Origin: Felis catus
Taxonomy: Eukaryota
Length of the DNA: 64,000 nucleotides
Assembly: GCF_018350175.1 (NCBI RefSeq)
Contig: NC_058368.1
Span: forward strand, 61,878,001-61,942,000
Reading direction: 5' to 3'
The notes beneath the pieces were generated by a model. It was not told the origin of the DNA. It worked only from the letters and a program-made list of their open reading frames with translations, and did no database searches. Position numbers and translations under genes: made by a program. Of this stretch, positions 9,846 to 61,055 are shown piece by piece (position 1 is the first letter of the stretch; each line of letters begins with the position of its first letter).

Positions 9846-11106
9846 CAGTAAAACCTAGGTTTGTGAGCATAATTTGTTCCAGAAACATGCTAATAACCCA
9901 AGGCACTTGTATATCAAAGCAAATTTCCCCATAAGAAATAATGGAAACTCAGATGATTCGTTCCGCCACCCAAAAATATTCATATAAAATGATTTCAATA
10001 CTCTAATTGAACACAAAATAATAAAGAAAATATAAAGGAAAATGAACCAAGTAACCTGCACTTACCTTTGAAAACCTTCATGGCTGGTGTAAGGAAGATA
10101 AGAGAGAGAGGAAGGTTATGGTGTAGGATGATTTTCACTATCACAAAATCACTACTATTGGCTCAAGGGAATCTTTTTCTTTTCATGCAACCTTAACAAA
10201 GAACCTATCCAATGACACTTACCTCCTTTTGAGTATTTCATAGAAATGTGGCCTTGCGTCATCTTTAAACAGATTCATTGTGCACACTGTTGCAGCTTTA
10301 TTCGGGTGGTGATTTTCCACAAAATTTTGTACTGTTTCCCATATTTTGCACATGTCCCTAATCTCATTTGAAGTGAGGAATTCTTCTACCTTTTCTCCTC
10401 CTCCTCTGCAGACAAAATGTAGAAGCAGACTTCTTATAAAGTCTTGCAGTTTCGGCCACTCACATACCTCGTTCATACTTTTCAATTATTTCATTCTTGA
10501 CTTCCACTGTAATATCTCCTTCTTCTTACTGCCTTTCTTTTCAACCTTTTTCTGCATGGGGGCCATTGTATACACTCACACCACTGTTAATTACAGTACA
10601 CTATTAATAAACTCTTGTCATATACTGTATTGAATGGAACCAACAATAAGGCAGAGAGAAAAGGGTCTATATCTGCAAGCAGCCTTACCTAGAATGAAGC
10701 AAAGACTGCCTAAGCTTACTCTTGTATGGAAAAGCAAAGAACTGTCCATAGGTGCTTTGAAGTAACAAAAACAAAAACAAAAACAAAAACAAAAACAAAA
10801 ACTAGTGCCAGTGGTGGGCATCTTCCAACATTCTAAAAAATCACTGATTTCCGCCAAACACTGCAGCCTGAAACCAAGCATCTGAGCATGAGAAACAATC
10901 ACCCACTTTCCTGCAACAAGGGAGAGAGACAGAAAGAGAGAGAGAGAAGAACCCTTGGCTCACTTGTGATCATGTTACGTTTGGCATCACGTACTACTCA
11001 TGTTGCAAGACATCACTCCTTTATCAAGTTAAAATGTATTAGAAATGTTTCCTGGTCTTTCAGAACATTCGCAGAACAAGTTACTCCACAATCCGTCGTT
11101 TTACTG
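9846..11106 (-). mobile_element. pogo/Tigger DNA transposon, internal-deletion derivative with both TIRs
   Basis: Both ends read CAGTAAAAC.. inward (9846 plus; 11106 minus, flanked by TA at 11107-11108); minus strand has transposase start (ATG at 10566, MAPMQKKVEKKGS..) joined at about 10412 to a C-terminal segment (LTSNEIRDMCKIWETVQNFVENHHPNKA..HFYEILKRR); 5' part aligns with 58240-58900. Confidence 0.88.
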
Positions 11107-11868
11107 TATCTGCTAAAGAGCTGAACAAATCTGTGGATTCCTCACAGACCTCTCTCCCCTGAGCTCCCCAGCCTGGGTGAGGTGGTCTTTTGCCTCCAAG
11201 CCACCCAATCCTTCCTCTTGTATCTTCTGATTCCTTCCCAGGCTGAAGTGCCTTGTTCGATACCACTGCTAAGAAAACTATCAGGGGATAGGATTCTTTT
11301 ACAGAATCACGAAGGACACAGAAAAACCCATAATCTTAGCCACAGTGCATGTTCTTCTCTGCAGCTCCCTCTGCTTGTGGCTCCAAGGCTGCTCAATCCA
11401 GTCTCTCACCTTTTGTCATTCAGATGAGGCTCAGACACCCACATCTGTGTCTTCTAAGTGGCACAGTCAAACTAACCACTTATCTTTTAACACCATCCCT
11501 GGGTTTGAGGTGAGAGAGCTTCTGTGCATTATAGTGAAGGTGAGCGATTTACCCAACATTTTGACAATAGTTTTTGGAGAAATTCTTATACTAGAATCTC
11601 TTATTAAATCCACTTTAATGCCCTTCTACTTACTTGGGCAAGTTCTGTGTGCTTCCTTTCATTAGAGTACATGGTCAGTTAACACTTCCAGAGTTGGAAT
11701 TACAGGGGTGTTTATTTTATTTTTTGCTACGGTTTTCCAGTTTGAAATATTCTCTACCCCAAGTGACTGTGATAATCATATTAAAGAAAGGAAGGGAAGA
11801 AAGTATAGAGAGAGGGAAGAAGAAAGGGAAGTAAAATAAACATAATTAGATAAGACCTAACTATGGCA

Positions 11869-18582: not shown

Positions 18583-19539
18583 GTGCATGTGTCTCGTTGA
18601 ATCAGTATTTTTGTATCCTTTGGGTAAATACCTAGTAGTGCACTGCTGGAACATAGGGTAGTTCTATTTTTAACTTTTGGAGGAATCTCCATACTGTTTT
18701 CCACAGTGGCTGCACCAGTTTGCATTCCCACCAACAGTGTAAGGGGGTTCCCCTTTTTCTGCATCCTCACCAACACTCGTTTCCTGTGTTGTTAATTTCA
18801 CCCCAATGTTTATGGCAACATTATCAACAATAGGCAAATTATGGAAAAAGCCCAAATGTCCATAGACCGATGAATTCATAAAGAAGTGGTATGCGTATGT
18901 ATATATAGAAATGTATATATAGACATGAGTATGACTCAGCCATTTGCAATGATGTGGATGGAACAAGAGTATAATGCTACTTGGAGTCAGTCAGTCAGCG
19001 AAAGACAAATACCATATGATTTCACTCATATGTGGAATTCCAAAAACAAAAGAGATGAACATGGGGGAAAAAGACAGGTAAACCATCAAACAGACTGTTA
19101 ACTATAGAGAAAAAGATGAGAGTTGATGGAGGGAGGTTGGTGTGAGAATGAGCTAAGTGGGTGATGGTTACTAAGGAGGGCACTTGTGATGAGCACTGGG
19201 TGCTGTATGTAAGTGATGAATCAGAACATTCTACTACTGAAACCAGTATTACATTATATGTTAACTAACTGGAATTTAAATAAAAACTTAAAAAAAAGAA
19301 GAGGCGCTTGAGTGGCTCAGTTGGCTGAGTGTCCGACTTCAGTTGAGGTCATGATCTCACAGCTTGTGAGTTCAAGCCCTGCATCAGGCTCTGTGTAGAC
19401 AACTCAGAGCCTGAAGCCTGCTTCAGATTCTGTGTCTCCCTCTCTCTCTCTGCCCCTCTCCCACTCATGCTCTGCCTCTCTCTCTCTCGCAAAAATAGAG
19501 AACTATTACAAAAATTAAAAAAAAAACTTAAAGAAAAAA
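18583..19539 (+). mobile_element. 5'-truncated, 5'-inverted carnivore L1 (twin priming)
   Basis: 18583-18798 is antisense ORF2 C-terminal sequence, 18799-19300 is sense ORF2 end, 3' UTR and A tail; TSD GGAGTCAGGA(C/T)G at 18566 and 19540. Confidence 0.9.
19301..19521 (+). mobile_element. CAN-SINE inserted in the L1 poly(A) tail
   Basis: SINEC body; flanking AAAAACTTAAA.. duplicated at 19282 and 19522. Confidence 0.93.
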
Positions 19540-24058: not shown

Positions 24059-25203
24059 TTTTTATGTTTGTTTGCTTATTTATTTATTTATTTATTTTGA
24101 GTGAAGGAAATAGTGTCAAAGCAGGGGAGGGGCAGAGAAAGAGGGAGGGAGAGAGAACCCCAAGCAGTATCCATGCTATCAGCACAGAGCCCAACACGGG
24201 ACTTGGCTTGATCTCACAAACCGTGAGATCATGACCTGATCTGAAATTAGGAGTCTGCATTCAAAATCTATAAAGAACTCACCAAACTCCACACCCAAAA
24301 AACAATCAAGTGAAGAAATGGGCAGAAGACATGAAGAGACACTTCTCTAAAGAAGACATCCAGATGGCCAACAGGCACATGAAAAGATGTTCAACATCAC
24401 TCCTCATCAGGGAAATACAAATCAAAACCACATTGAGATATCACCTCATGCTAGTTGGAGAAGCTAAAATGAACAAATCAGGAGACTATAGATGCTGGAG
24501 AGAATGTGGAGAAACGGGAACCCTCTTGCACTGTTGGTGGAAATGCAAACCGGTGTGGCCGCTCTGGAAAACAGTGTGGAGGTTCCTCAAAAAATTAAAA
24601 ATAGATATACCCTATGACCCAGCAATAGCACTGCTAGGAATTTACCCAAGGGATACAGGAGTACTGATGCATAGGGGAACTTGTACCCCAATGTTTATAG
24701 CAGCACTTTCAACAATAGTCAAATTATGGAAAGAGTCTAAATGTCCATCAGTTGACGAATGGATAAAGAAGTTGTGGTTTATATATACAATGAATACTAC
24801 TTGGCAATGAGAAATAATGAAACCTGGCCTTTTGTAGCAACATGGTTGGAACTGGAGAGTGTTATACTAAGTGAAATAAGTCATACATAGAAAGACAGAT
24901 ACCATATGTTTTCACCCTTATGTGGATCCTGAGAAACTTACCAGAAGACCATGGAGGAGGGGAAGGGGGAAAAAAGTTAGAAAAGGAGGGAGCCAAACCA
25001 TAAGAGACTCTTAAAAAACTGAGAATAAACTGAGGGTTGATGGGGGGTGGGATGGAGGGGAGGGTGTGTGGTGGGTATTGAGGAGGGCACCTGTTGGGAT
25101 GAGCACTGGGTGTTTTATGGAAACCAATTTGACAATAAATTTCATATTAAAAAAATGAAATTTGGAGTCTGATGCTTCACCGATTGAACCACCCAGGCAT
25201 CCC
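24059..25203 (-). mobile_element. CAN-SINE split by an L1 insertion (pieces 24059-24257 and 25172-25203)
   Basis: SINE body stops at gaaattaggagtctg and resumes atgcttcaccgattgaaccacccaggcatccc; perfect 16-bp TSD AGAAGTGGGCTTTTCT at 24043 and 25205. Confidence 0.93.
24258..25155 (+). mobile_element. 5'-truncated feline L1 (ORF2 C-terminus and 3' UTR)
   Basis: ORF 24310-24810 is L1 ORF2 C-terminus with the CCHC motif ([18 protein letters not shown]); feline-type 3' UTR ending aaccaatttgacaataaatttcatatt(A)n; TSD TGAAATT(A/T)GGAGTCTG at 24242 and 25156. Confidence 0.96.
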
Positions 25204-46591: not shown

Positions 46592-46886
46592 TACTGTCAG
46601 CCTGTCAGCATAGAGCCTGCTTTGGATCCTCTGTCCTCCTCTCTCAGTCCCTCCCTTTCTTATGCTCTCCCTAAAATAAATAAATACAATCTAAAAAATT
46701 TTAAAAAGAACTACCCTAGGACCCAGCAATTGTTCTACTATGTATTTACTAAAAGCATACAACAAATGCTGATTCTAAGGGGTACATGCACTCCAATGTT
46801 TATAACAGCATTATCAACAATAGTCAAATTATGGAAAGAGCCCAAATGTCCATCGACTGATGAATGGATAAAGATGTGTGTGTGTG

Positions 46887-56098: not shown

Positions 56099-58239
56099 AA
56101 AAAGTTTTTGGTTCTCATAATCATAATGAATATGAGGCTAATTACTTCACTTTTATGGACAGAGAATATGACTCAGTGAGTCCAATATCAGCCCAGTAAG
56201 TGATGTAGCTGTGCTCTTATCCAAGTTTATAGTACCTGAAAACATAAGGTTTTCACAAACACACTATAATTTTCTAAATAATAGATTTCAGTTCCATTCT
56301 GATAAACATTGTTTGACTTTTGTAATGAAGCCTAATTTGAGACAGTAAGATCTTAAAATTAGTTTTTTTTTTCTGATGTGTTCTATTTATAAATTACTAC
56401 CATGGTTGTTTCTTTCAATTGTTTATGTGTTTCTAATTGAATAGTTTAGGTAATTTTCTATATACATTATTCGTGGTGTTTTACTTGGTTTTATATTTCT
56501 TTTACTTGTTTTTATTCCTTTAAATTTTCCTGCTATCTTACGGGTAAAACTAAACATGTTTTGTCTTAATATCTGGATTTAGCAACATACTGGTAGATCT
56601 TATAGCTATTTCCAAGCTTTGCTCTATATTCCAAGAAATACTGAGATATTAATACATTTTTTGGGGGGGTGGGGATAACCATCATCTCTTTTTCTACCAG
56701 TTACAATTTGATAGGTATTTCTTCTCCATGCCCCAGGACCTTGAATCTTTTTTCCTTTTTTGCTTGAAACAATAATGTTGCCAGTTCCTACAAAAACCAT
56801 CTTTTCAAAGCTTTTGTCTTGCAGAGCTATGGACAAATGAGTAGGGTAGGGATTCATACAGGCAGCTACTGCAAAAAATCTCTGGCTTGCTTGTCTCTAC
56901 TGGCAATTTTTATCTTTAATCATAATAATTTTAACCTTACTTCTGCCTTTTCAGGACATCTCTGAATCTGACAAAATAGGATTCTAACCAACAGTATATT
57001 ATCTCCTTCCTTACTCTGTCCAGAGGTAAAGTTGCTGGTAATGATCCATTTGGTTGCAAAATTAAAATTGAAAAGAGCCAAAGATCAGTATTACTGTACA
57101 GAAGGGAATAACACACCCGAGCTATCTAATTGTTCACAGGTAGAGTATAGAAACCATGTATTTCTGTATGATATATCTTCTGAGTTATGGATAGCTTTAT
57201 ATTTAGACAAGACTCTAAGTGAGAAAACCAACACAAGGAAAGTAAGATTGACTTCATATATCATACTTTAAGTAGGTGTGGTATACATTTCAACCCTGTC
57301 TATGCATCACCAAAGTATCCTCTGATACTTTGAAGATTAGAAACATGAAAATCAGGGCACTTTCCTTTCTCATAGATGTAAACTGATGCCTGGAGATGTG
57401 CTGTTCAAGGTGATTATTTTGCTGTGCTAGAAGGCACCCAGAAGTTTTCTAATAGGTGTCATAATTCAAGCTAAAGTCAACATATTTCAAAGCTCCAAAA
57501 ATATCTGTCACATATAAATGCATAAAATAAAATGGGTGTTAAGGCAGATAGCTATATGTGTCTTATTTTAGAGGAATATGAAATAATATGTCTTTTTAAA
57601 AATTTAAGCCTTGGACTATCTTAACACGATGCACAGTGTATGTATTATGGTATAAGATAGTATAAGTGTAATTCACTGGCCTAGTGGGTGAAGTGGATTG
57701 CCATAATATCAAGAAGCAGTCTTCAATTCCAGAGAATGATTTACTTAGTATGTATACTTTCTATTGCATCTATGTTATATATTAGTTAACCAATTATGTA
57801 GTTCGATGATTGATACATAGCATAAATACAGTGCTTTTACATCTAATGTAGGATACTGTTTACTATATCTTACGGTGTGTTTTCTCAATATAGTTTTCTG
57901 AATGTAGTATAGAAATGCCTTAACTGCCTTTTGTAAAGTTTTGCAATACAACAAATATTTTCTTTTCACTAGAATAACCAGTTGCTATTAGTAAAGTCCA
58001 ACATCATGAGAGTTCTAAGTTCTTAAAGCAAAGATACTCACCCAAGAAAAACATATATAAATTTTATTAATAAAAATAAAAGTATCTTTATAAAAGGTGT
58101 AAACATTGTGTTTTACACCTTCATAAGTGTATACTCTTGTTTTCCATATCTGGAGATTACATTCTAGTTCTGCAATTACATTTTGTCACCATTTAATTAC
58201 TCTGACATTTTAACTTTTATATGGACAGAAAACAAAATA

Positions 58240-59582
58240 CAGTAAAACCTTGGATTGCAAGTAAACTTGTTCTGCGAGTGTTCCACAAGAGGAACAAACA
58301 TTTCTAATAAACTTTAACTTAATAAACAAGCGATGTCTTGCAATAAGAGTACTACATGATGCCAAACATCACATGATCACAACTGAGCCAATGGTTCTTC
58401 TGTGTGTGTGTGTGTGTGTGTGTGTGCATGTGTGTGTGTGTGGGATTGTGCTTGATCATCTTCCATGCTCAGATATTCTGTCTCAGGCCACGGTATTTGG
58501 CAGAAATCGGGGATTTTTCAGAATGTTGGAAGAAGCACACAATTGGCAGTAGTGTATTTTTTGTCACTTCAAAGCATCTATGGACAGTCCTTTGCTTTCC
58601 ATACAAGAGTAAACTTAGGTAGGTTTTGCTTCATTCTAGGTCAGGCTGCCTGCCTCTGTTGCCTTATTGCCAGTTCCACTGAATACAGTATATGACAAGA
58701 GTTTATTAATATCGTACTGTACTGTAGTCAACACTTGTGGGAGTGTATACAATGGCCCCCATGCAGAAAAAATGGTTGAAAAAAAAAGGCAGTCAGAGGA
58801 AGGAGATGATTACGGTGGAAGTTAAGAAGGGAATTATCAAGAAGTACAAATGAGGTATGCGAGTGGCTGAAACTGCAAAATTTTGTAAGAAGTCTAAACC
58901 GACCATTTGCATAATATTAAAGAAGAAATAAGGGGGCTATATGTAGCAAAAGGAGTCATGATAATATCAAAGCAATGGCCATTTGTTCTGGAAGATGTAG
59001 AAAAGTTGCTTCTGGTTTAGATAAACGAGAGAACTGTATCTGGAAGAAGGCAAAGGCATTGTATACCAACCTGTAAGTAAACTGCCTGATACATCAACAG
59101 AAAAGGAGGGAGCCTTCAAGGAAAGAAGGGCATGGTTTGATAATTTTAAGAGGAGAAGTGGCATCCATGGTATTGTGAGGCACAGAGAGCCTGCACTAAG
59201 GCAGCCAAAGAGTTCACTACTGAGTTCCAGAAGCTCATGGTTTCTGAGTGTTACCTGCCAGGGCAAGATTTAAATGCAATGAGTCAGATTTTATGGAAAA
59301 AAGATACCAAAGGAGACCTACATTAGAGAAGAAAATGCAATGCCCAGTCATAATTCTATGAAAGACCATCTCACCCTCTTGTTTTGTGCTAATGGAAGCA
59401 GGATTTCAAAGTCAAGCCCCTGCTTGTGTATCATTCTGAGAATCCACGAACCTTCAAGAAATGCAAGGTGCGGAAGAGCCAGTTAAAAGTCATGTGGAGG
59501 TCCAACAACAAGGCTTGGGTCACCCATATCTTCTTCATTGACTGCATCAAAGAGGCCTTTGATCCTGCAGTGACAAAATACT
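58240..59582 (+). mobile_element. pogo/Tigger DNA transposon, 5' half with pseudogenised transposase
   Basis: TA|CAGTAAAACC TIR; ATG at 58752; frameshifted blocks KEMITVEVKKGII (HTH), LEDVEKLLLV, FKERRAWFDNFKRRSGIH (CENP-B-type HTH), MKDHLTLLFCAN and KVKPLLVYHSENPRTFKK..VMWRSNNKAWVT (DDE_1-type domain). Confidence 0.93.
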
Positions 59583-59587
59583 TTGTG

Positions 59588-59598
59588 TTCCTTCCTTC

Positions 59599-59645
<47 letters not shown>

Positions 59646-59648
59646 TCA
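59588..59648. repeat. (CTTT)n/(CCTT)n microsatellite, probably a decayed L1 poly(A) tail
   Basis: Tetranucleotide run abutting an antisense L1 3' end. Confidence 0.9.
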
Positions 59649-59748
59649 TTCTTCACTATATTTGACAAAAAATTACATTACTATCAGGTGTACAACATAG
59701 TGATTCAAAAGTTTATACATTATGCTCTGCTCCCCACAAGAGTAGCTA
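59649..59748 (-). mobile_element. Short carnivore L1 3'-end fragment
   Basis: ttacattactatcaggtgtacaacatagtgattcaaaagtttatacattatgctctgctccccacaagagtagcta. Confidence 0.75.
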
Positions 59749-61055
59749 ACTAGGTGTTTATTTTTCAACCAATTTCATTAAAAGATTTGACACAGTCAGT
59801 CACACTAAAACATGAACAAAATAAGTGCAACACATAGACACTTTAAATGTTTGTGGAAGCTTTAAGATTCTGCTACCAAAAGTATTAAGTATTTGTAATA
59901 TTGGCATTTCTTCTACAAAATGAGTTTTCTTCAAAGAATTTGGAAGCTCAAGAAATTAATTAAGGAACACCTTTGCTCTTGCCTAGTTTGATAGTAGTTA
60001 GAATAAAATTTCAGTCTTCAACTAACAAAAGTCAGGATTCTTGCTGCAGGTAGATAAAGAAGCTATTACCCTCTAAAGACAGCAGCTTTGGTTGAATGGT
60101 TTAGTGCTTCGTTTATCATAACAATGGGTGATAAGGCTAATAAGAAGTTGTGTTCCTCTAATGGTAGAGATAAGAAAAGACAGGACATTACTCTTGGGTA
60201 AATCTAGATAGGATCAAATTCTGGACTGGCTCCATGTTGCCTGGTAAACTGTCTAGCCAAAGAAAAAGAAAAACAGCAAAAGAAGAAAGAAAGGAAAAAA
60301 AAAACTTTAATATAGAACATCTTTAGGAAAAGTAACTTGGGAATCTGAAAATCTATACTTCCTCAGCTACTTTTCTACACTAAACCATTATTATCATAAT
60401 ATGGTTTTTGATAGTATAAGTGTTTCTTGTGAACATGACAGCATTTCTTGAGCATCTTATATTTATGTGAAAACATAAAGAACTTAGCCTAGAAGGATAG
60501 ACGTTTGAAATTATAGAGCAATAAAATGTTATTTAAGGAATATTCTAGCAATATAAAGTATTGTATGAGTGCAAAGAATCACGATTCATCTTAAAGCAGG
60601 TGACTTTTGAGTTGGTGTTGAAGACTGAGTAGGCTCACCAGATAAGTAAGGTAAGAGTATTCCAGTAAAGAGAACATAAAGGTCAAAAGCAGATGTGAGA
60701 AGGAATGGTGTGTGAGTGAACTTCAAATAGTAATAGGTTACATAATGGAAAGGCTGGAAATGGGACCAGAAACGGTAACTTGTTTACAGATTGCATTTGA
60801 CTCAAGTGGATGTCTTTAATCTCAGAATGTCATAGCCTGTGGTCCAGAGACCACCTACATCAAAACCACCTGAAGGGCTTGTGCTCAATAAACTTAATCT
60901 TATTCTCAATAATCTTAAGCTTACTTTTTTGTGAATGGAAACCAATGTAAAATGTGCATACCCCATGCATTGCCCAAGATGATATAGTGATAAATGAGAT
61001 GATACAAGAATATTAAACTTCTGTTTAGGTTTTAAGGGGAGAGAGAGAAAGAAAC

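What the first reader, a model, noticed from the sequence alone, without database searches (positions are those of the whole stretch)
58240..59582. Fossil pogo/Tigger transposase family, reconstructable from two copies; candidate lineage-specific horizontal invasion
Seen: TA-flanked TIR CAGTAAAACC, about 510 bp of leader, then a frameshifted but readable transposase: N-terminal HTH, CENP-B-type HTH (WFDNFKRRSGIH), and DDE_1-type motifs (KDHLTLLFCAN, KPLLVYHSENPR, MWRSNNKAWVT). The first about 160 bp align with the reverse complement of the 11106 end at roughly 80-85 percent by eye. This copy gives the N-terminal half and the 9846-11106 copy gives the C-terminus and 3' TIR; only the middle is missing. 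The termini do not match the pan-eutherian Tigger consensus ends I recall. Inference: a younger family, possibly restricted to feliforms or carnivores and acquired by horizontal transfer. It may already be in repeat libraries under a name I cannot recall.
Basis: partly seen in the sequence, partly recalled or inferred. Interest (0 to 1): 0.75.

Follow-up and report, generated by a model that had tools for sequence, protein, structure and literature searches.

The report
Dead Tigger transposons in a cat
These are two broken copies of an ancient jumping gene that entered the ancestor of cats, hyenas and mongooses from another animal lineage, an invasion that was already published in 2022.

Summary
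Copy A (58240-59587) is a 3'-truncated Tigger/pogo element. Copy B (9846-11106, minus) is an internally deleted copy with both ends. They align over 701 columns at 75%. They do not rebuild the transposase: 190 residues, including two of the three catalytic aspartates, are missing from both. Near-complete natural proteins already exist, such as Hipposideros P0005. Diaby et al. 2022 (PMC9219625) list this TIR type in 16 of 17 feliforms, 0 of 23 caniforms and 0 of 3 pangolins, and in Hipposideros, hystricognath rodents and a lamprey; they call the lamprey-mammal link horizontal transfer. My tree adds Varanus, Phrynocephalus and Nanorana as nearer relatives than lampreys. Reads indicate about 900 copies, mostly non-autonomous deletion forms. 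A-B divergence suggests roughly 37-61 My (recalled rates). The scan had no earlier look-alike note. The best lead lies outside the window: the paper's 'intact' feliform copy behaves like one orthologous gene under selection, with its catalytic triad kept.

The parts
58238..58239 (+). TA target site, 5' side of copy A
   Evidence: sequence
58240..58261 (+). 5' terminal inverted repeat of copy A; 20 of 21 letters match the lamprey TIR listed by Diaby et al.
58262..58751 (+). 5' leader of copy A, with a (GT)n run near 58398-58443 where copy B has a CT-rich run; the part read (from 58450) is the most abundant part of the family
58752..59587 (+). Decayed transposase, aa 3-299 of P0005 (alignment starts at 58743): two HTH regions and the start of DDE_1; 7 frameshifts, 2 stops, first catalytic Asp position reads Asn
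   Evidence: reads show letters missing from A at 58918, 59274 and 59400
59588..59647 (+). (CCTT/CTTT)n microsatellite at the point where copy A breaks off
   Evidence: no 3' half downstream
11085..11106 (-). 5' TIR of copy B (more decayed), TA at 11107-11108
10410..11084 (-). Copy B leader and transposase N-terminus (aa 3-58)
10404..10410 (-). Internal deletion joint of copy B (aa 59-489 absent)
10156..10404 (-). Copy B transposase C-terminus (aa 490-576), with stops
9846..10155 (-). Copy B 3' trailer and 3' TIR (9846-9867), flanked by TC instead of TA

Best explanation
A and B are dead, neutrally decaying copies of a Tigger (pogo superfamily) cut-and-paste transposon of about 2.5 kb, the family in Diaby et al.'s cluster B. 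An autonomous element entered the germ line of the feliform stem lineage by horizontal transfer, after the split from caniforms and before cats, hyenas and mongooses separated (inferred). Its transposase bound the roughly 22-bp TIRs through its N-terminal HTH domains, cut with a DD36D centre and inserted at TA (established pogo mechanism; not tested here). It also mobilised, in trans, many internally deleted copies that kept both ends, and these now dominate the family (shown by read depth and junction reads). The family then died out. B is such a deletion copy; A is a once-coding copy that lost its 3' half. The same element also reached a hipposiderid bat, hystricognath rodents, two lizards and a frog, apparently by separate transfers (inferred from patchiness and the tree).
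For: Anatomy and breaks. P0005 is 85% identical to Petromyzon, Polypterus and Monopterus proteins, 88% to Nanorana, 87% to lion and 90% to Erethizon, but only 60-62% to other bats' Tiggers. A starred 11-row clade (98/95) joins Hipposideros, 3 feliform, 3 rodent, 3 lizard and 1 frog rows. The AU test rejects one clade for the 10 mammal rows, p 2.5e-113. Published distribution and distances. In the listed rows of two searches with P0005 (120 of 550 and 120 of 963 hits), the only named mammals at 75% identity or more are Hipposideros, feliforms and hystricognaths. In 3 of 3 raw WGS runs, leader depth peaks at 660-711 against 2-45 in the coding part beyond 58906. At 58771, 117-154 reads per run continue straight into the element's 3' part (18 of 19 letters match B 10173-10155). 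A-B K2P is 0.184, or 0.164 without CpG columns.
Against: Absence from caniforms rests on a survey of long or ORF-bearing copies and on protein searches; truncated copies and empty orthologous sites were not examined. With A added, A groups with the hystricognath rodents (95/81) rather than with the feliform proteins, on a long branch with 47% of columns filled, and the 11-row group drops to 87/92. The AU grouping was named after I saw the tree and includes 3 distant bat rows, so it does not test the 7 close mammal rows. Branching inside the tetrapod clade is unresolved, so donor and direction are unknown. One feliform in the survey (Paradoxurus) lacks an entry. Some host-gene distances in the paper look erroneous (for example RPL3 0.76-0.91 for some carnivore pairs). 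Dates use recalled rates.
Confidence: 0.88

Rival explanations
1. The family is an old boreoeutherian or tetrapod Tigger inherited vertically and lost, or missed, in most lineages.
For: It occurs in three mammalian orders spanning Laurasiatheria and Euarchontoglires. Copy A groups with rodent proteins in one tree. Surveys miss truncated copies (PMC7386202 passage).
Against: A lamprey-cat nucleotide distance of 0.074 is smaller than the distance between two neighbouring copies in one genome (0.16-0.18). About 900 copies could not be lost cleanly from all 23 caniforms surveyed (inference). Other bats hold only 60-62% relatives.
Confidence: 0.06
2. One mammalian entry followed by mammal-to-mammal spread (for example rodent to feliform through predation), rather than separate entries from a shared non-mammalian or parasite reservoir. 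This is a variant of the route, not of the identity.
For: Mammal rows are each other's nearest proteins: P0005-Erethizon 90%. A is 72-74% to Hipposideros, Erethizon and Lynx against 67% to lamprey and bichir. A is sister to the rodents.
Against: Varanus, Phrynocephalus and Nanorana rows sit in the same unresolved clade. A's link to rodents may come from parallel CpG decay: the first Asp codon follows a CpG in all 4 metagenome loci, and that site has changed in A, Hipposideros and the rodents.
Confidence: 0.3
3. Copy A itself is functional, as an exapted DNA-binding fragment or a still active element.
For: The motifs remain readable.
Against: A stop at residue 38 and a frameshift at residue 66 come before the CENP-B-type HTH. 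There are 9 breaks in 297 codons, and no second or third Asp and no 3' TIR. Its DNA-binding region is 93/120 identical to P0005, against 125/133 for the lion protein (Fisher p 2e-4).
Confidence: 0.02

Closest known systems
Cluster B Tigger of Diaby et al. 2022 (PMC9219625): Feca_1, Acju_1, Crcr, Hepa_2, Hiar_2, Hegl, Leca
   Same: TIR beginning CAGTAAAACCTTGG (A matches the lamprey TIR at 20 of 21 letters), TA target, and the same transposase (A is 72% to the 591-aa Hipposideros protein, the ORF length listed for Hiar_2). Feliform-only among carnivores; HT already inferred there.
   Different: The window's copies are broken members, not the listed representatives. The abundant short deletion forms fall below the paper's 1-kb count (231 copies in F. 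catus, against about 900 from reads). In the parts I saw, the paper does not link Varanus, Phrynocephalus or this Nanorana element to the group (its Nanorana entry has another TIR; I saw only the first rows of its reptile list).
Tigger1 / TIGD1 (pan-eutherian, CAGGCATACC ends, 593-aa ORF in Diaby Table S1)
   Same: Tigger family, TA target, HTH + CENP-B HTH + DDE_1 layout; NCBI labels the relatives 'TIGD1-like'.
   Different: Different TIR, and listed as a separate element in the same felid genomes. No Tigger1 protein was in hand, so I made no direct comparison.
Myotis/Miniopterus/Molossus Tigger (CAGTGG ends listed for Myotis)
   Same: Related Tigger transposases in bats.
   Different: Only 60-62% identical to P0005 and on a separate branch.
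Domesticated pogo genes TIGD2-7, JRK, JRKL, CENPB, CENPBD1, POGK, POGZ (Gao et al. 2020, PMC7386202)
   Same: Model for the ORF-keeping feliform and rodent loci noticed outside the window.
   Different: The window's copies are dead. Gao et al. set TIGD1-like sequences aside as pseudogene-like, so these loci appear not to have been assessed there.

Membership tests
pogo superfamily, Tigger family | Transposase with N-terminal HTH/CENP-B domains and a DDE_1 domain | tested here: met
   DDE_1 E 8e-11; HTH pieces below cut-off; 203/282 identity to P0005, which carries PF04218, PF03221 and PF03184
pogo superfamily, Tigger family | DD29-36D catalytic spacing | tested here: inconclusive
   The second and third Asp lie in the part missing from both copies; P0005 has 36 residues between D312 and D349 (range)
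pogo superfamily, Tigger family | Short TIRs starting CAG | tested here: met
   Both ends of B and the 5' end of A
pogo superfamily, Tigger family | TA target-site duplication | tested here: inconclusive
   TA at 2 of 3 ends present; TC at B's 3' end; A lacks its 3' end
Diaby 2022 cluster B feliform/Hipposideros/rodent/lamprey element | TIR motif of Table S1 | tested here: met
Diaby 2022 cluster B feliform/Hipposideros/rodent/lamprey element | Transposase falls in the same clade | tested here: met
   A lies inside the group of Hipposideros, feliform and rodent proteins (group support 87/92 with A included; 98/95 for the like clade in the larger tree without A)
Diaby 2022 cluster B feliform/Hipposideros/rodent/lamprey element | Over 80% nucleotide identity to the published representative | not testable with these tools
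   No vertebrate genome or published element could be loaded; about 137-147 of 1133 places differ in a quarter or more of family reads
Pan-eutherian Tigger1 | CAGGCATACC-type TIR | tested here: not met
Pan-eutherian Tigger1 | Orthologous insertions in human, cow or dog | not testable with these tools
   All 24 runs returned were organism A; no other genomes are held
Named Dfam/Repbase family | Match to a library consensus | not testable with these tools
   No repeat library; six names guessed from recall found 0 papers; one search listed no naming paper
Horizontally transferred element | Patchy distribution, closer than host genes, tree unlike the host tree | tested here: met
   Patchiness, published distances, tree and AU test; caveats under Best explanation

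The most novel reading that the evidence does not exclude
The family left an undescribed domesticated gene in feliforms. Diaby's 'intact' element would be one orthologous locus, kept for 30 My or more in cats, hyenas and mongooses as a 548-553-aa protein with all three catalytic aspartates. A second feliform locus (lion P0043 / meerkat P0041) and a hystricognath locus would be further independent domestications. All would descend from one transfer wave that also reached a bat, varanid and agamid lizards and a frog. The window's dead copies serve as the neutral control: they predict about 17 breaks per 548 codons.
Probability: 0.5. Interest if true: 0.55.

Novelty: already known. Interest (0 to 1): 0.25.

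Why it matters
The two copies are ordinary fossils, and both the family and its horizontal transfer are in print. What remains useful is modest. About 900 insertions dating to the feliform stem are potential presence/absence markers for feliform phylogeny. The closest relatives are a mixed set of tetrapods rather than lampreys, which changes the likely route of transfer. If the ORF-keeping feliform locus is a domesticated gene with an intact catalytic triad, it would be a relatively recent case of a horizontally acquired transposase becoming a host gene, and the felid-to-felid 'transfers' in the 2022 tables would be plain vertical descent.

Tried and rejected
No whole genome is held, so no genome-wide consensus, Kimura profile or orthologous-site test was possible. 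Cluster membership of the lion protein (23 members) could not be listed, so its species spread is unknown. The run search on the A junction returned one organism only (20 holders, 10 studies); holders are picked for holding the stretch, so this shows the junction is real, not that it is fixed. A metagenome scan gave 4 loci from 57 candidate stretches, 71-82% identical to A or B in local matches, 2 of them with terminal matches; their hosts are unnamed, so they were not used for distribution. Whether B's own deletion joint is multi-copy is unresolved: depth falls from about 130-145 to about 40 across 58868-58943, but no loose-end row at 58895 was among those shown (398 rows hidden), and A has a 7-bp gap at 58918. 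The 58721 junction is mixed: two runs lead towards the 3' part, one does not. Literature: (five terms) gave 0 papers; one search gave 0; (domestication terms) gave only Gao 2020. Main-text searches for 'Tigger' found 0 hits in PMC10162687 and PMC7070016, 1 passing mention in the Zoonomia preprint, and 3 in PMC9549598 (the passage shown concerns Miniopterus elements). Their supplementary element lists were not seen and may name this family. Rejected: reconstruction from A plus B, a new family, carnivore-only distribution, current activity of A or B.

Full report
Setting. The window is AT-rich mammalian DNA with many SINE-like repeats that I recognise from recall as carnivore SINEs. Earlier scan notes on the same genome call it cat-family (unchecked). 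The host is therefore taken to be a felid by inference. No whole genome is held.

Observation. Copy A starts after TA at 58240 and has its ATG at 58752, a 512-bp leader. It aligns to the minus strand of 11109-10427 at 529/701 columns, E 6e-142, so the shared part is about 660 bp, not 160. A TIR pattern hits 58240 and 9846, with 0 matches expected by chance; B's 11106 end is too decayed to pass 3 mismatches. Of 8 pieces scanned, one passes a Pfam cut-off (DDE_1, E 8e-11) and two give weak HTH hits. Against the Hipposideros armiger protein P0005, A covers aa 3-299 at 203/282 identity, with 7 frameshifts, 2 stops and 4 deletions. B covers aa 3-58 and 490-576 at 104/141. Residues 300-489 are in neither copy, and they include D312 and D349, so the two copies cannot rebuild the catalytic core. 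A ends at a pyrimidine microsatellite, and no 3' half follows in the window. B has TA on one side and TC on the other.

Relatives. The 63-aa DDE piece found 32 proteins among 33 candidates, led by unnamed records and by Hipposideros, Lynx, Nanorana, Geotrypetes and Polypterus. With P0005 as query, 120 of 550 hits were listed: 90% Erethizon, 88% Nanorana, 87% lion, 85% Petromyzon, Polypterus, Monopterus and Lynx, 84% Fukomys and Varanus, 80% Cavia and Phrynocephalus, 76% Suricata, but 60-62% for Myotis, Miniopterus and Molossus. A search of shorter proteins (120 of 963 listed) added only Chinchilla and Lynx pardinus among mammals at 75% or more. No caniform, primate or ungulate name appeared in the listed rows; many rows are unnamed and most hits were not listed.

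Tree. I used 36 named proteins chosen, leaving out unnamed records and most rows under 65%. A starred clade (98/95) of 11 rows joins Hipposideros, three feliform, three rodent, three lizard and one frog protein, unresolved inside; lamprey and bichir lie outside it. Forcing the 10 mammal rows together is rejected (p-AU 2.5e-113), but that group was named after seeing the tree and includes the three distant bat rows. In a 23-row tree with A added, A falls in this group (87/92) as sister to the rodents (95/81), on a long branch with 47% of columns. That goes against a tidy feliform grouping. Parallel CpG decay is a likely cause: the first catalytic codon follows a CpG in 4 of 4 metagenome loci and has changed in A, Hipposideros and the rodent proteins. 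This is inference.

Copy number and structure. Three raw WGS runs of the host species, about 1938 million letters each, were laid on 58450-59582 at 80% likeness. Summed depth peaks at 660-711 in the leader and is about 2-45 beyond 58906. At an assumed 2.5-Gb genome this is about 850-920 copies for the leader and about 45-55 for the best-covered coding bins; these are lower bounds, because A is itself decayed. At 58771, 117, 154 and 128 reads leave A and continue with letters matching the element's 3' part (B 10173-10155), which shows a multi-copy deletion subfamily. The reads restore letters at 58918, 59274 and 59400, so those frameshifts belong to A and not to the family. A and B differ by K2P 0.184, or 0.164 without CpG columns, over 539 columns. 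On recalled rates of 1.5-2.2e-9 per year this is 37-61 My, which brackets the feliform stem (recalled dates).

What is in print. For Diaby et al. 2022 (PMC9219625) I read parts 1-4 of 7 of the text (the whole main text, no figures), Table S1 parts 5-6, searched rows of S1-S3 and passages of the trimmed protein alignment; I did not see Data S2. Table S1 gives this TIR type for 16 of 17 feliform species (132-402 long copies), none of 23 caniforms or 3 pangolins, plus Hipposideros armiger 2, hystricognath rodents and Lethenteron camtschaticum. The text reports HT between that lamprey and 26 eutherians in cluster B. The lamprey-cat distance is 0.074, against 0.276 and 0.353 for RPL3 and RPL4. For Gao 2020 (PMC7386202), Paulat 2023 (PMC10162687), PMC9549598, Zhang 2020 (PMC7070016) and the Zoonomia preprint (10.1101/2022.12.28.522108) I saw passages only; their supplements were not seen and may name the family. 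I did not find a Dfam/Repbase name.

Mechanism. Shown: TIRs, TA flanks at two of three ends, a Tigger-type transposase remnant, a large excess of deletion copies, neutral decay. From established pogo biology: TIR binding by HTH domains, DDD-catalysed cut-and-paste into TA, mobilisation of non-autonomous copies in trans. Inferred: entry by horizontal transfer into the feliform stem, with separate entries into a bat, hystricognaths, lizards and a frog; donor and vector unknown.

Side lead, outside the window. The paper's representative feliform element has a 548-553-aa ORF in all 16 species and an odd CAAGT end in 15 of them, whereas the three ends in the window read CAGTA. Its distances follow the host tree: cat to black-footed cat 0.003, lynx 0.004, jaguar 0.010, hyena 0.050, mongoose 0.054. 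In the trimmed alignment of about 153 columns, the cat protein differs from mongoose at 1 and from hyena at 3 positions, against 13 for Hipposideros and 10 for lamprey, at nucleotide distances of about 0.07 (my count by eye). All three aspartates are present. The window's copies predict about 17 breaks in 548 codons, so survival by chance among 400 copies is about 1e-5 to 2e-5. This points to one orthologous locus under selection. The alternative is that these entries are per-species consensus sequences, which the paper's methods allow. Separately, lion P0043 and meerkat P0041 share 125/133 residues in the DNA-binding region but 31/64 near the C-terminus; annotated proteins are a selected set, which weakens this. 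One search for such domestication found only Gao 2020, which set TIGD1-like sequences aside. Synteny, dN/dS and expression were not tested.

Verdict. Real fossils of a published, horizontally transferred Tigger family: already known, interest 0.25. The most novel reading, a domesticated feliform gene from this family, has probability about 0.5 and would merit about 0.55.

Noticed in passing
outside the window: Diaby 2022 Table S1 entries Feca_1, Crcr, Hepa_2 and kin; protein P0007: The 'intact' feliform element looks like a single orthologous locus under purifying selection with the DDD triad kept; the Lynx RefSeq model P0007 shares several of its marks.
   Followed up: partly
proteins P0043 (lion, 23 cluster members) and P0041 (meerkat): Possible second retained feliform locus: DNA-binding region 125/133 identical, C-terminal part 31/64; the meerkat protein has lost two catalytic Asp.
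   Followed up: partly
proteins P0018, P0023, P0040, P0140: Hystricognath rodents have 1-15 copies, most with 560-586-aa ORFs, and have lost the first Asp; candidate rodent domestication.
   Followed up: partly
protein P0033 (Petromyzon marinus, 1004 aa): A transposase of this family is fused in the gene model to a C2H2 zinc-finger array.
   Followed up: no
proteins P0091, P0094 (Myotis): More distant bat Tigger proteins carry an extra PF02946 domain in their gene models.
   Followed up: no
window 58771 and 58721: Break points of multi-copy deletion (MITE-like) subfamilies seen in reads; the 58771 type has 117-154 reads per run.
   Followed up: partly
window 59277-59280: The first catalytic Asp codon follows a CpG, which may explain its repeated change in unrelated hosts.
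   Followed up: partly
window 58398-58443 and 10920-10950: The same leader site holds a (GT)n run in A and a CT-rich run in B, so different microsatellites arose at one site.
   Followed up: no
window 59650-59750: A short stretch after A's break resembles a reversed L1 3' end (recalled resemblance only; no second copy in the window).
   Followed up: partly
window 18601-18798, 24467-24668, 46695-46773: Three related fragments at about 80% identity, probably L1 pieces by recall.
   Followed up: no
L001-L004: CpG-rich relatives (observed/expected 0.44-0.77, against 0.20-0.28 in A and B) in unnamed metagenome contigs; L003 and L004 include terminal sequence matching the window copies.
   Followed up: partly
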